64,000 nucleotides of DNA, taken from NCBI RefSeq assembly GCF_003790525.1, contig NZ_CP033635.1. One strand, written 5' to 3'. Position numbers: made by a program. Source of the stretch: Escherichia coli (lineage in GTDB: Bacteria > Pseudomonadota > Gammaproteobacteria > Enterobacterales > Enterobacteriaceae). Shown in pieces: positions 37,701 to 40,700 of the stretch. The stretch's first letter is position 1, and the number at the start of each line of letters is the position of its first letter.

Positions 37701-40700
37701 AACGCCAAATTCGCTTTGGATCCGTGCTGCCAGCGCGTGGATAAGCTGCCCGCGACGTTCTTCATCGCTGATCCGACACTGGATCTGCAAAATGATTTTT
37801 TCCTGGGCGGTAACAAAAGCAATCGCATCGCCAGAATGAATTTCCGGTTCCTGTTCCGCAATATATTCAATATCCTGCGGCCAGATATTACGGCCACGAA
37901 TAATAATCAGATCTTTAATGCGTCCGGTGACATACAGATAACCGTCCAGCAGATAACCGAGGTCGCCGGTGTCTAACCAGCCCGTCGCGGCAATCTCGTC
38001 TTGTGAAATCTGGTCGCCAAAGTAACCGCTCATCAGGCTAGGGCCGGAGATGCAAATATGGCCTACCACACGTTCCGCGACAGGTATACCTGCTTCATTG
38101 CGGATTTCAATGCCATGTTCCGGCAACGCTTTACCGCAGTTGACGAAAGTCGATACGGCGCGTGTTTCAGCATCCGGCGCGACGGCTTTGCCCTGATATT
38201 CGAGGATGTCGCGATCCACTTCGTTAACCACAACCCCGGAAGCTTCATCAGAGAAGCTGACAGCCAGCGCATTTTCTGCCAGTCCGTAGCACGGCATGAA
38301 AGTTTTATCGTCAAAGTTGACCTGACGGAAACATTCAGCGAATTGATGGAGTTGTTCTGCGGAGATGGGTTCTGCACCAATACCAGCGACGCGCCAGCAG
38401 GAAAGATCCAGTTCAGCGAGATCTTTTTCATTCACGCGGCGCTGGCACAATTCATAGCCAAACGGCGGCGCAACGGAAACGGTGCCGCGATTTTTACTGA
38501 TCAATTTAAGCCATTGCAGAGGACGCATGGCAAAATCCTGAGTGCGCAAATAATCTACTGAAAGCTGCGTGGCGACGGGGGTCAGGAGAAAGCCGACCAG
38601 TCCCATATCATGGTAGAAAGGCAGCCAGGAGACGCAGCGGTCGCCAGGGCGTAATTTTATGCCATCGTGGCTTATAGCACGTAGATTAGCCATCACTTCG
38701 CGATGGGTGATAATGACGCCACGGGGAAAACGGGTGCTGCCGGAGGTGTACTGGAGGTAGGCGATATCGTTCGGAACTGGACGCTGGAGCGCAACATCGG
38801 CTTCCGGTAATGCCTTAAACCAGGCGTGGCTTAAAACATGTAATTCGGGGTTGTTGTTATGCGTCGCGGCATTGACCAGTGGCAACCACTCATCACCAGT
38901 GATAATGGCTGCGGGCTGGCAACTTGCCAGTAAACCCTGCAGCTTGGCGCTCCAGGAATCCCGCTGACCGACGCCCATGGGAATCGCCAACGGGACGGCG
39001 ACTAAGCCGGCATACTGGCAGGCAAAAAAAGCCTCTACGAACCCGCTACTGGTTTCGGCAATCAGCGCCACGCGATCGCCTTTTTTCAGGTTTAGCGATA
39101 ACAACCGCTTCGCACCAGCTTCGGCACGCGCTTTTAACGTCTGATATTCCAGTTGATCTTCAAGTTGGCAACGTCTGTCATAAAAATTCATTCCAGCGCT
39201 ACTCAGAGCGGCATAGTCCAAAGCATCAACCAGCGTTGGAAAATCGGCATAGCGCATAGGTAGGGAATGCGTAAAGATTTTATTAGACATATACACCACG
39301 AAAAAATTGGATATCAAAAATAAAATGACAATAATGCGGTGGATTATATAGGCATAAAAGATAAATGAGATAGTATTTTCATCAGTGTGAAAATGAACAT
39401 TGATTTAAATAATGAATTTGAGTTTTTTGTTTTTATTGTGAATGATATTTAATTTATGAATATATTAAGAAGGAGCCTTGTCCGGTCGCCTTAAATCGAC
39501 AAAAGGCATTGTGGCGCTTCTGTGTAGTCTCTGACCTTATCGTAATCATTAATAAATACTATTTATTCGTTGTTTGTATTCATTGGGTTGATTATTAAGG
39601 TGCCGTTCGTTGCTGTTGCAACCTGTTTGTCACCGTTAATTATTTGTTACCCACAGAACTATGGAATGCGATCTGCTGATGATTAAAATTGAAAAAGTAA
39701 TTAATAAAAATGACCTTAAGGCATTTATCGCTTTTCCGTCATCACTTTATCCCGACGATCCAAACTGGATACCCCCTTTATTCATTGAACGCAACGAGCA
39801 TTTGTCTGCGAAAAATCCGGGGACGGACCATATCATCTGGCAGGCGTGGGTGGCAAAAAAAGCGGGGCAGATAGTTGGGCGTATTACCGCGCAAATAGAT
39901 ACATTGCACCGCGAGCGTTACGGCAAAGATACCGGTCATTTCGGCATGATTGACGCCATTGATGATCCGCAGGTTTTTGCCGCGTTGTTTGGCGCAGCGG
40001 AAGCGTGGTTGAAGTCACAAGGTGCAAGTAAGATCAGCGGTCCTTTCAGCCTGAATATCAATCAGGAAAGCGGATTACTGATTGAAGGTTTCGATACACC
40101 ACCCTGTGCGATGATGCCACACGGCAAACCGTGGTATGCCGCGCATATTGAACAATTGGGTTATCACAAAGGCATTGATTTACTGGCGTGGTGGATGCAG
40201 CGAACCGATCTCACTTTCTCTCCGGCGCTAAAAAAACTGATGGATCAGGTACGCAAAAAGGTGACCATTCGTTGCATCAATCGTCAGCGGTTTGCTGAAG
40301 AGATGCAGATCCTGCGTGAGATTTTCAACTCTGGCTGGCAGCACAACTGGGGATTTGTGCCGTTTACCGAACATGAATTCGCGACCATGGGCGACCAACT
40401 TAAATATCTGGTGCCGGACGATATGATCTACATCGCTGAGATTGATTCTGCACCCTGCGCGTTTATTGTCGGCTTGCCAAACATCAACGAGGCGATTGCC
40501 GATCTGAACGGATCGCTCTTTCCCTTCGGCTGGGCAAAATTGCTGTGGCGTTTAAAAGTCAGCGGTGTGCGAACTGCGCGAGTACCGCTGATGGGCGTGC
40601 GGGACGAGTATCAGTTCAGCCGCATCGGCCCGGTGATTGCGCTGTTATTGATTGAAGCCTTACGCGATCCGTTTGCCCGCCGGAAGATCGATGCGCTGGA

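What the first reader, a model, noticed from the sequence alone, without database searches (positions are those of the whole stretch)
39318..39660. AT-rich divergent control region, a candidate silencing site and the likely edge of the K-12 deletion
This is the largest intergenic gap in the locus and is strongly AT-rich with long A/T tracts, the composition typically bound by H-NS. Similar AT-rich leaders precede pitB (about 25992-26282) and yghJ (about 50368-50806). Such regions are also frequent IS insertion targets, which fits the K-12 rearrangement.
Basis: inference. Interest (0 to 1): 0.4.

Follow-up and report, generated by a model that had tools for sequence, protein, structure and literature searches.

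The report
AT-rich control region, IS landing pad
This is the AT-rich spacer between the two divergently transcribed halves of E. coli's little-studied sphingolipid (ceramide) gene cluster; it is ordinary in kind, but insertion sequences have landed in it repeatedly, and one such event made the K-12 deletion.

Summary
The gap is 39291-39660 (370 bp, 31.4% GC against 51.8% for the window). It is the second-largest gap in the window, not the largest. It lies inside a 500-bp AT-rich tract (about 39250-39750).

The flanking genes are not anonymous. yghO is the ceramide-synthase-type N-acyltransferase, and it faces aasR-cerR-acpR-spt. Together they form the published E. coli sphingolipid cluster. 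The same divergent layout recurs in 41 loci from other species.

The MG1655-type K-12 deletion (31315-39700, replaced by one IS5) ends at a TTAA at 39701-39704. That is 40 bp beyond the stated interval, in yghO codon 14, but still inside the AT-rich tract. K-12 strain NCM3722 keeps the gap.

The new result is that the tract is a recurrent IS1 target. Among 5,426 complete genomes I found at least 27 distinct IS1 insertion or deletion junctions (39213-39787). With IS1 in the same orientation, there were 14 distinct sites here against 4 in an equal-sized coding control. Partner breakpoints fall in or next to the other AT-rich leaders (pitB, yghT-yghS, sslE).

H-NS silencing is plausible. The tract has the highest density of promoter-like sites in the window, and its composition matches the sslE leader, a documented H-NS target. 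It remains untested. Known kind, new example.

The parts
39291..39660 (.). Intergenic gap between aasR (minus strand) and yghO (plus strand); 370 bp, GC 0.314
   Evidence: RefSeq annotation of the near-identical genome CREC-544 (locus coordinate +19199; 3 mismatches to the window over the 40.6-kb locus, none near this gap). Gap table.
39250..39750 (.). Full AT-rich tract. It includes the first ~40 nt of aasR and the first ~90 nt of yghO. It has the highest density of sigma-70-like hexamer pairs in the window.
   Evidence: 100-bp GC of 0.22-0.40. Second-lowest-GC 501-bp stretch, with TpA and W-run percentiles of 99.4-99.9. 54 promoter-like pairs over 5 bits on both strands, against a window median of 9 and a 95th percentile of 25. 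The scoring matrix is my own approximation.
37566..39290 (-). aasR, a fatty acyl-AMP ligase / specialised acyl-ACP synthetase. First gene of the aasR-cerR-acpR-spt operon.
   Evidence: NCBIfam NF006624 at 872 bits (cut-off 600). Pfam AMP-binding. Equated with ECD_02851 = aasR in PMC9386255. Some genomes annotate the start 33 nt downstream, at Met12.
39661..40803 (+). yghO, the acyl-CoA N-acyltransferase (aca/cerS homologue) of the sphingolipid cluster
   Evidence: PMC9386255 Fig. 9 legend: aca = CC_1154 = yghO ECD_02850. 74-83% identical in other enterobacterial genera (63-70% in two Pseudomonas loci), and in 41 of the fetched loci it lies divergent from aasR. No Pfam or NCBIfam model matches it.
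39291..39383 (.). aasR-proximal block, conserved across Escherichia clades. Presumed aasR promoter and 5' leader.
   Evidence: 95-100% invariant columns per 20-bp bin across 39297-39376 (0.90 in the 39277-39296 bin that straddles the start of the block) among 9 alleles: phylogroups A, B, B1 and B2, cryptic clades and E. whittamii.
39343..39348 (-). Perfect TATAAT on the aasR strand, 53 nt upstream of the aasR ATG, with a poor -35. Candidate -10 element.
   Evidence: Sequence. Matrix scan, 8.4 bits. Invariant in Escherichia. Function not shown.
39417..39575 (.). Variable centre of the gap, including the slightly GC-richer stretch 39470-39540
   Evidence: Mostly 15-60% invariant columns per 20-bp bin (two bins reach 0.7-0.8), with two diverged allele types. 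No Rfam match. Only 21-38 aa ORFs.
39701..39704 (.). TTAA target at the right junction of the MG1655-type IS5 and deletion
   Evidence: K-12 reads ...CTTGTTCGCACCTTCC|TTAATAAAAATG. The window reads ...GAAAAAGTAA|TTAATAAAAATG.
31315..39700 (.). 8,386-bp segment replaced by one 1,195-bp IS5 in MG1655-type K-12. It runs from the yghQ 3' end through aasR, the whole gap and yghO codons 1-13.
   Evidence: BLAST of MG1655 locus L002 against the window. Junction sequences. Annotation.
39218..39227 (.). Target duplication of a simple IS1 insertion (strain LD93-1)
39463..39473 (.). Target duplication of a simple IS1 insertion (strain TW10573). A further simple insertion lies at about 39413-39423 (Ecol_AZ146).
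39527..39535 (.). 9-bp target duplication of a simple IS1 insertion shared by 5 genomes (FDAARGOS_1288 group)
25992..26282 (.). pitB leader, an AT-rich partner breakpoint zone. IS1 deletions reach from 26119 (FORC_082) and 26309 (ATCC 8739) to this tract.
28524..28696 (.). yghT-yghS divergent gap (GC 0.301), a partner breakpoint zone: 28693 (F11); 28817 and 28824 just inside yghS (AR_0006 group, EC0026B, E100341)
50325..50806 (.). sslE (yghJ) leader. Partner of an IS1-bounded inversion joining 50840 to 39695 (EH09-18-41 group). Documented H-NS target and K-12 'promoter island'.

Best explanation
The interval is the divergent regulatory spacer of the E. coli sphingolipid (dihydroceramide) gene cluster. 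On one side lies yghO, the ceramide-synthase-type N-acyltransferase. On the other lies the aasR-cerR-acpR-spt operon.

The spacer sits in a 500-bp tract of about 31% GC. That tract carries more sigma-70-like hexamer pairs than anywhere else in the window. It therefore resembles the AT-rich 'promoter islands' that H-NS coats and keeps quiet.

Because IS1 and IS5 favour such DNA, the tract acts as a landing pad. IS copies insert here, or resident copies nearby transpose into it. The DNA in between is then lost or inverted.

In the MG1655 lineage, an IS5 already sitting in yghQ became joined to a TTAA at 39701. This removed the whole cluster and the spacer. Many wild lineages did the equivalent independently with IS1.

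Shown: the gene identities, the composition, the K-12 junction, and the repeated IS junctions with their excess over controls.

Inferred: H-NS occupancy, silencing of the cluster, which promoter-like sites are real, and whether H-NS or base composition alone attracts the IS elements.
For: Gene identities:
- RefSeq annotation.
- NCBIfam matches above cut-off for spt and aasR. Pfam matches for aasR, cerR, acpR and spt.
- PMC9386255 names ECD_02850-02854 as aca(yghO), aasR, epi, acpR and spt. A 2026 preprint draws the E. coli UTI89 sphingolipid operon with lptF/G paralogues.
- yghO lies divergent from aasR in 41 loci from Serratia to Pseudomonas. The gap is always long (270-1095 bp) and 6-25 GC points below the flanking genes.

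Composition and promoter-like density.

K-12:
- MG1655 junctions are at 31314 and 39701, with TTAG and TTAA flanks.
- NCM3722 keeps the gap. It has IS5 at 31314..32671 and a second IS5 in acpR near 36409, both beside TTAA (PMC3045373).

IS hot spot:
- Gap-only query: 24 truncated matches and 9 extra split matches. Three 370-bp coding controls gave 2, 0 and 0 truncated matches and no extra splits.
- IS1-plus-region queries found 29 and 35 genomes, giving at least 14 and at least 13 distinct junction sites.
- An equal-sized aasR-body control in one IS1 orientation gave 4 sites. 14 against 4 gives a one-sided binomial p of about 0.015.
- Exact junctions are 39235, 39251, 39263, 39292, 39373, 39622, 39695 and 39731. 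Simple insertions with target duplications lie at 39218-27, 39463-73 and 39527-35.
- Partner ends fall in or within 130 bp of the three other lowest-GC tracts of the window.

H-NS by analogy:
- The sslE leader has the same composition. It is reported to bind purified H-NS and is a K-12 promoter island bound in all ChIP studies.
- yghS is H-NS-associated in two data sets.
- IS5-family elements are reported to be captured at H-NS-bound DNA. IS5 is reported to favour AT-rich, intergenic and H-NS-bound targets.
Against: - There are no H-NS occupancy or hns-mutant expression data for this region in any strain I could reach.
- The H-NS high-affinity motif TCGATAAATT has only one 2-mismatch hit in the gap and one in the yghO 5' end. 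The window as a whole shows at most a marginal excess (76 against 61 expected; 3 of 100 shuffles reach 76).
- There is no helical phasing of A/T tracts.
- The cluster's coding GC is host-like (0.51-0.56). It is therefore not a classic AT-rich foreign island.
- IS1 prefers AT-rich DNA by itself (my own knowledge of the early IS1 target studies). H-NS is therefore not needed to explain the hot spot.
- Counts are of genomes and distinct sites, not events placed on a phylogeny. About half of the junction coordinates are estimated from alignment spans and are good to roughly +/-10 bp.
- Only one equal-sized IS1 control region was examined. It still had 4 sites, so the enrichment is about 3.5-fold by that measure.
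- The promoter scoring matrix is my approximation. No transcription start is known.
Confidence: 0.7

Rival explanations
1. It is an ordinary AT-rich divergent promoter region that is expressed or conventionally regulated, with no H-NS silencing. IS elements cluster here only because IS1 (AT-rich targets) and IS5 (YTAR tetramers such as TTAA) find more acceptable sites in AT-rich DNA.
For: - No H-NS high-affinity motif and no curvature signal.
- All three K-12 IS5 right junctions sit beside TTAA. TTAA is simply commoner in AT-rich DNA.
- The aasR-proximal 90 bp is as conserved as coding sequence, as expected for a working promoter and leader.
- Divergent gaps at this locus are AT-rich relative to their flanks in every genus examined.
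Against: - Tracts of equal composition in the same window (sslE leader, yghS region) are documented H-NS targets.
- Promoter-like site density is the highest in the window, which is the signature described for H-NS-bound promoter islands.
- IS5-family capture is reported to depend on H-NS bridging.
Confidence: 0.25
2. The clustering of breakpoints reflects selection rather than target choice. Losing the sphingolipid operon while keeping yghO and the glc genes is favoured or tolerated, so only deletions ending at this boundary survive.
For: - Most IS1 deletions remove aasR through yghS or pitB and leave yghO intact.
- About a quarter of genomes lack the cluster.
- Lab lineages (K-12 MG1655, ATCC 8739) have lost it.
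Against: - Simple insertions without any deletion occur in the tract at four or more sites.
- Several junctions truncate yghO (39695, 39701, 39731, about 39787). Keeping yghO is therefore not required.
- If the operon were freely dispensable, insertions inside spt, cerR or aasR should be equally tolerated. They are much rarer.
- The far ends of the deletions also pick AT-rich leaders.
Confidence: 0.15
3. The gap hides a discrete functional element, such as a small RNA, riboswitch-like leader or small protein, and the AT-richness is incidental.
For: - The conserved aasR-proximal block.
- A weak hairpin pairing CCACCG with the CGUGGUG just upstream of the aasR AUG (-8 kcal/mol, z = -1.8).
- Other genera carry a conserved motif in their equivalent gap.
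Against: - No Rfam match at E <= 1.
- The ORFs are 21-38 aa, and the sequence under them is variable among Escherichia alleles.
- The fold is not significant and there is no covariation, because both arms are invariant.
- The Escherichia gap has no detectable similarity to any other genus and lacks their motif.
Confidence: 0.05

Closest known systems
yghJ/sslE promoter region of E. coli (H-NS/StpA-repressed leader of the T2SS-beta operon; one of the 78 K-12 'promoter islands')
   Same: - It lies in the same window.
- Size and composition match: 482 bp at GC 0.326, against 370 bp at GC 0.314.
- It has a high density of promoter-like sites.
- It is also an IS1 breakpoint partner.
   Different: - The sslE leader has direct evidence. 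It is reported to bind purified H-NS, hns affects its promoter activity, and it is ChIP-positive in all studies. The yghO-aasR tract has none.
- The sslE leader is a tandem gap, not a divergent one.
bgl operon silencer (bglR), the classic H-NS-silenced AT-rich region that is hit and activated by IS1 and IS5
   Same: AT-rich regulatory DNA upstream of a cryptic operon that repeatedly receives IS1 and IS5. Several alleles here are simple IS1 insertions 126-250 nt upstream of yghO, which could act in the same way. The bgl facts are from my own knowledge and from the introduction of PMC11677980.
   Different: At bgl, activation by IS insertion and relief of H-NS silencing are demonstrated. Here, neither silencing nor activation has been tested. 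Most events here are deletions that destroy the operon rather than switch it on.
H-NS 'transposon capture' hot spots (Cooper et al. 2024, PMC11335895)
   Same: IS5-family elements (ISAba13, IS903, insH3) accumulate in H-NS-bound AT-rich DNA. The K-12 junction here is an IS5 end in such a tract.
   Different: - Most events here are IS1, which is not an IS5-family element.
- H-NS occupancy of this tract is not known.
- My data are natural variants filtered by selection, not transposition spectra.
Caulobacter crescentus sphingolipid locus (aasR-cerR-acpR-spt, cerS, lptF2/G2)
   Same: The same five biosynthetic genes and the LptF/G paralogues are clustered.
   Different: - The gene order and the divergent yghO-aasR spacer are enterobacterial.
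- I found nothing published on regulation of the E. coli locus in the searchable library.

Membership tests
H-NS-silenced AT-rich regulatory region / 'promoter island' | A stretch of at least ~300 bp with GC far below the genome mean | tested here: met
   GC 0.315 over 501 bp against 0.518 for the window. Second lowest in 64 kb.
H-NS-silenced AT-rich regulatory region / 'promoter island' | Abnormally high density of overlapping promoter-like sites on both strands | tested here: met
   54 hexamer pairs over 5 bits. The window median is 9 and the 95th percentile is 25. This is the highest in the window and above the sslE promoter island at 29. The matrix is approximate and not the PlatProm tool used to define the family.
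H-NS-silenced AT-rich regulatory region / 'promoter island' | H-NS occupancy in vivo (ChIP) or in vitro binding | not testable with these tools
   The region is absent from MG1655 and W3110, the strains used for published ChIP. No data found for other strains.
H-NS-silenced AT-rich regulatory region / 'promoter island' | Derepression of the adjacent genes in hns mutants | not testable with these tools
   No expression data found.
H-NS-silenced AT-rich regulatory region / 'promoter island' | High-affinity nucleation motif TCGATAAATT | tested here: not met
   Only 39451-39460 and 39722-39731, each with 2 mismatches. No local enrichment. The motif is not obligatory for H-NS binding.
H-NS-silenced AT-rich regulatory region / 'promoter island' | Intrinsic curvature from phased A-tracts | tested here: not met
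   AA/TT periodicity at 10-11.2 bp is 0.44, against a shuffle mean of 0.67. 77% of shuffles are at least as high. This is a periodicity test only, not a curvature model.
H-NS-silenced AT-rich regulatory region / 'promoter island' | Association with horizontally acquired genes | tested here: inconclusive
   The cluster is present in about 76% of E. coli genomes and patchily across Enterobacterales and Pseudomonas. Its coding GC is host-like.
Insertion-sequence hot spot | Multiple independent insertions with target-site duplications at different positions | tested here: met
   IS1 target duplications at 39218-27, 39463-73 and 39527-35, and an insertion at about 39413-23, in unrelated strains.
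Insertion-sequence hot spot | Excess over comparable neighbouring DNA | tested here: met
   - 24 truncated plus 9 extra split matches in the gap, against 2, 0 and 0 truncated and no extra splits in three 370-bp coding controls.
- 14 against 4 distinct IS1 sites in 651-bp test and control regions, same IS1 orientation.
- Events were not placed on a phylogeny.
Insertion-sequence hot spot | Junctions conform to the element's target rule (IS5: YTAR) | tested here: met
   TTAA at 39701. TTAA also at both NCM3722 IS5 right junctions. TTAG at the shared left junction.
Divergent control region of the rhodobacterial-type ceramide synthesis cluster | Flanked by aasR-cerR-acpR-spt on one side and the cerS/aca N-acyltransferase on the other | tested here: met
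   Annotation. NCBIfam SPT equivalog at 600 bits (cut-off 500) and FAAL subfamily at 872 bits (cut-off 600). Pfam. Published gene assignment for BL21(DE3).
Divergent control region of the rhodobacterial-type ceramide synthesis cluster | The arrangement is conserved in relatives | tested here: met
   41 of the 44 loci fetched with YghO have aasR divergent from yghO. The other three are a 430-bp contig, a second Shimwellia copy and a locus with only 698 bp of upstream flank.
Divergent control region of the rhodobacterial-type ceramide synthesis cluster | Mapped promoters or transcription starts for both units | not testable with these tools
   Only consensus-level candidates, for example TATAAT at 39348-39343 on the minus strand.

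The most novel reading that the evidence does not exclude
This tract is the H-NS-bound, promoter-island-type silencer that keeps the ceramide/sphingolipid pathway cryptic in the roughly three-quarters of E. coli genomes that still carry it. Capture of IS1 and IS5 at the tract is then the main way lineages either lose the pathway (K-12 MG1655, ATCC 8739 and many wild clones) or, as at bgl, switch it on through simple IS1 insertions upstream of yghO or aasR.
Probability: 0.25. Interest if true: 0.55.

Novelty: new member of a known kind. Interest (0 to 1): 0.33.

Why it matters
E. coli is the textbook example of a bacterium without sphingolipids. Yet about 76% of complete E. coli genomes carry an apparently intact ceramide gene set. 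The textbook strain lacks it only because an IS5 event ended 40 bp from this spacer.

If the spacer is an H-NS-silenced control region, that would explain why the pathway has gone unnoticed. It would also give a direct handle for waking it up: an hns mutant, or the natural IS1-insertion alleles.

Independently of H-NS, the tract is a clean natural example of AT-rich regulatory DNA steering IS-mediated genome reduction. Both ends of the deletions fall in AT-rich leaders.

As a kind of feature, it is ordinary.

Tried and rejected
- Rfam on 38800-40200 and on a Serratia gap: nothing at E <= 1.
- Small ORFs in the gap: only 21-38 aa, over sequence that varies among Escherichia alleles.
- Built-in promoter/terminator scan: 2 promoter-like sites against 3.1 expected, so uninformative at its stringency.
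- IHF consensus WATCAANNNNTTR: no site in the tract.
- H-NS motif and A-tract phasing: negative.
- Cross-genus footprinting: the Escherichia gap aligns with no other genus beyond the ~12 nt next to the aasR start.
- H-NS ChIP evidence:
  - Kahramanoglou 2011 has no supplement held.
  - The ETEC H10407 paper holds only CRP peak tables.
  - Full-text searches for H-NS with yghJ plus ChIP-seq, or with serine palmitoyltransferase, gave nothing.
- Locus-tag searches found only the Geiger-lab paper.
- Stankeviciute 2022 is not held. One search was a malformed search.
- fetched the wrong part of the NCM3722 record because I guessed the coordinates wrongly.
- One search used a chimeric query with IS1 in both orientations. 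It was swamped by inverted IS1 pairs and is unusable.
- One search was my error. The second half of the query was not window sequence. Its result is not used anywhere.
- One search was the valid control but listed too few rows. It was repeated.
- I considered that the central GC-richer stretch (39470-39540) might be a conserved RNA or binding site. I rejected this because it is the most variable part among Escherichia alleles.
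Full report
**What is at the coordinates**

The window is E. coli chromosome. It differs at only 3 positions, over a 40.6-kb stretch, from strain CREC-544. RefSeq annotation of that genome places a minus-strand fatty acyl-AMP ligase at 37566-39290 and plus-strand yghO at 39661-40803. The gap is therefore 39291-39660.

The gap is 370 bp with GC 0.314, against 0.518 for the window.

It is the second-largest gap in the 64 kb. The glcA-sslE gap (50325-50806, 482 bp, GC 0.326) is larger. It is the largest divergent gap, and the largest within the ygh/spt cluster.

The AT-rich zone is wider than the gap. 100-bp GC runs 0.22-0.40 from about 39250 to 39750, which takes in the first codons of both genes. 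The four lowest-GC 501-bp stretches of the window are:
- the sslE leader (0.313)
- this tract (0.315)
- the pitB leader (0.333)
- the yghT-yghS region (0.373)

TpA steps and A/T tracts of 4 or more are at the 99.4th percentile, and long W-runs at the 99.9th. The tracts show no 10-11 bp phasing.

**What the flanking genes are**

The minus-strand operon is aasR, then an NAD-dependent epimerase-family reductase (cerR/epi), then a small acyl carrier protein (acpR), then spt.
- spt passes the NCBIfam serine palmitoyltransferase equivalog (600 bits, cut-off 500).
- aasR passes the FAAL subfamily model (872 bits, cut-off 600).
- Pfam domains agree.

Padilla-Gomez et al. (PMC9386255) studied these very genes from BL21(DE3). 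Their Fig. 9 assigns ECD_02851-02854 to aasR, epi, acpR and spt. It assigns yghO (ECD_02850) to the acyl-CoA N-acyltransferase of dihydroceramide synthesis. The lptF/lptG-like genes just upstream match the sphingolipid-transport paralogues described in a 2026 preprint, which draws the E. coli UTI89 locus.

The interval is therefore the divergent spacer of the E. coli sphingolipid cluster. A scan of one genome per species with YghO returned 44 loci. In 41 of them, aasR lies divergent from yghO. These run from cryptic Escherichia clades through Serratia, Erwinia, Pantoea and Hafnia to Pseudomonas. The gap is 270-1095 bp and is always below the GC of its flanks.

**Anatomy of the gap**

Among nine Escherichia alleles, the aasR-proximal ~90 bp (39291-39383) is as conserved as coding sequence, with 95-100% invariant columns per 20-bp bin across 39297-39376. 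The centre (39417-39575) is the most variable part, mostly 15-60% invariant, with two diverged allele types. The yghO-proximal part is intermediate.

No Rfam family matches. ORFs are 21-38 aa over sequence that varies among the Escherichia alleles. A perfect TATAAT on the aasR strand (39348-39343) with a poor -35 lies 53 nt from the aasR ATG and is invariant.

I scored the window with a sigma-70 matrix that I approximated from memory. The tract holds 28 (plus strand) and 26 (minus strand) hexamer pairs above 5 bits. This is the highest total in the window, where the median is 9 and the 95th percentile is 25. It also exceeds the sslE leader at 29. No single site stands out. Which ones fire is unknown.

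The Escherichia gap has no detectable similarity to the gap of any other genus.

**The K-12 deletion**

MG1655 aligns to the window at 23060-31314 and again at 39701-40809. A 1,195-bp IS5 lies between. The missing DNA is 31315-39700 (8,386 bp). It comprises the 3' end of yghQ, two small genes, the lptF/G paralogues, spt, acpR, cerR, aasR, the whole gap and the first 13 codons of yghO.

The right junction abuts TTAA at 39701-39704. The left abuts TTAG. Both fit the IS5 YTAR rule, but they are not a matching duplication.

K-12 strain NCM3722 keeps the gap and an intact yghO (described in PMC3045373). It has:
- the same left junction, but with the IS5 followed by 32671 (a 1.4-kb loss)
- a second IS5 in acpR near 36409

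So the MG1655 state arose stepwise. One route is that the resident IS5 transposed intramolecularly into the TTAA in yghO. The other is that a further copy inserted there and recombined.

It is still in the same AT-rich tract, where GC over +/-50 bp is 0.32, the 1.5th percentile.

**A recurrent IS1 target**

Of 5,426 complete genomes, 4,160 match the 370-bp gap. Of these, 24 match only partly and 11 have the match split into two places. Three 370-bp coding controls gave the following:

| Control | Partial matches | Split matches |
|---|---|---|
| aasR | 2 | 2 |
| spt | 0 | 2 |
| cerR | 0 | 2 |

Two split matches is therefore the background level.

Queries made of IS1 joined to 39150-39800 ranked IS1-adjacent alleles first. 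They gave 29 genomes in one IS1 orientation and 35 in the other. After removing those with IS1 outside the region, these represent at least 14 and at least 13 distinct junction sites. The same design on 37650-38300 (aasR body) gave 4 sites inside the control. The other rows were the aasR-5' events seen again through the joining distance. 14 against 4 gives a one-sided binomial p of about 0.015.

Junctions I mapped exactly by BLAST:

| Position | Strain(s) | Event |
|---|---|---|
| 39235 | ST131 isolate 46 | joined to a pap/iuc island |
| 39251 | EC0026B and relatives | deletion from 28824 |
| 39263 | AR_0006 group, 10 genomes | deletion from 28817 |
| 39292 | F11 | deletion from 28693 |
| 39373 | ATCC 8739 | deletion from 26309 |
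| 39622 | FORC_082 | deletion from 26119 |
| 39695 | EH09-18-41 group | inversion to 50840 in sslE |
| 39731 | E100341 | deletion from 28824 |

Simple insertions with target duplications lie at 39218-27, 39463-73 and 39527-35, and one at about 39413-23. The remaining sites are estimated from alignment spans and are good to about +/-10 bp.

Two features argue for target choice rather than survivorship:
- Simple insertions occur without any deletion, and several junctions truncate yghO.
- The far ends of the deletions fall in, or within 130 bp of, the other three lowest-GC tracts of the window: the pitB leader, the yghT-yghS gap and the sslE leader.

EC0026B and E100341 share the left junction 28824 but end at 39251 and 39731. 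This suggests one resident IS1 making separate adjacent deletions that each stopped in this tract.

**H-NS**

I found no occupancy or expression data for this tract. The strains used for published K-12 ChIP lack it, and text searches found nothing for other strains.

The indirect case in favour:
- The sslE leader has the same size and composition. It is reported to bind purified H-NS and to respond to hns in UPEC. It is one of the 78 K-12 'promoter islands', marked as H-NS-bound in all ChIP studies.
- yghS is listed as H-NS-associated in the Kahramanoglou and Oshima data sets.
- IS5 is described as favouring AT-rich, intergenic and H-NS-bound targets. IS5-family elements are reported to be captured by H-NS bridging.

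Against:
- The TCGATAAATT motif is not enriched.
- There is no A-tract phasing.
- The cluster's coding GC is host-like.
- IS1's own AT preference (my knowledge of the early IS1 target literature) could explain the hot spot without H-NS.

I put H-NS occupancy at roughly 0.7 and functional silencing of the cluster somewhat lower.

**Verdict**

It is a divergent control region. It is an IS target. The K-12 IS5 junction is 40 bp away, in the same tract. H-NS remains a reasonable but untested candidate.

The feature belongs to a well-known kind: AT-rich, promoter-dense regulatory DNA that attracts insertion sequences. What is specific to this case:
- It controls the sphingolipid cluster that K-12 lost.
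- It has been hit by IS1 at two dozen or more distinct sites across the species.

Noticed in passing
L019:3268-3989 and the equivalent gaps of L014-L016, L018, L022, L026, L028, L029, L033, L034, L039, L042, L043, L045, L047, L053: In at least 17 non-Escherichia loci, the yghO-aasR gap carries a conserved motif AAAAGCATTAAGTGGTAAAAA on the yghO strand. About 35 nt upstream of it lies AAAAGTG(A/T)A. The motif usually sits 260-350 nt from the yghO start. It is absent (up to 4 substitutions allowed) from Escherichia, Pseudocitrobacter, C. youngae, Rosenbergiella and Pseudomonas. No Rfam match. It could be a conserved promoter or a regulator site of the sphingolipid cluster.
   Followed up: partly
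window 39650-39660: BL21-derived and K-12 NCM3722 alleles carry a 5-bp ACAGA duplication immediately before the yghO ATG (CCCACAGAACAGAACTATGG against CCCACAGAACTATGG). There is no obvious Shine-Dalgarno sequence in either form. Homologues in other genera align only from residue 5-7, so Met7 (39679) may be the real start.
   Followed up: no
window 40810-40893: An ~84-bp GC-rich element (GCGCAGGGGCGATCCCTCGCCCCTCGGGGAAAGGGTTAGGGTGAGGGTG...) lies between convergent yghO and glcC. It is absent from K-12 and from several other strains, and it changes the glcC 3' end (771 against 765 nt). From memory it looks like a small Box-C-type intergenic repeat.
   Followed up: partly
window 22998-23059: The hybG-yghU convergent spacer differs between this strain (62 bp) and K-12 and others (115 bp). 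The two versions do not align.
   Followed up: no
window 30000-42000: 672 of 5,426 complete genomes have no megablast match to any part of this 12-kb stretch, including glcC and the glcD 5' end. Some lineages therefore carry a much larger loss or replacement. I did not identify which lineages.
   Followed up: no
L065:1-5000 (window 26037-26327): Strain E100341 has an IS1 in the pitB leader flanked by a 291-bp direct duplication of 26037-26327, not the usual 9-bp duplication.
   Followed up: no
window 39291-39350, minus strand: In the presumed aasR leader, CCACCG can pair with the CGUGGUG just upstream of the AUG, which would mask the likely ribosome-binding site. The fold is weak (-8 kcal/mol, z = -1.8, 8 of 200 shuffles as good). 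Both arms are invariant, so no covariation test is possible.
   Followed up: partly
window about 61347-62569 (gspF): In the near-identical genome CREC-544, RefSeq marks gspF of the T2SS-beta operon as frameshifted. The secretion system downstream of sslE may therefore be defective in this strain.
   Followed up: no
L058 (window 39695 joined to 50840): Four genomes (EH09-18-41 group) carry an IS1-bounded rearrangement that places the sslE 5' end head-to-head with the yghO 5' end. This inverts the glc operon region between two AT-rich leaders.
   Followed up: partly
window 28524-28696 and IS1 next to yghT in other genomes: Several unrelated genomes in the IS1 searches show an IS1 directly beside yghT (for example XJW9B263, EC26, EM03-18-08, Ec73552). 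The yghT-yghS gap may therefore be a second recurrent IS1 site.
   Followed up: no
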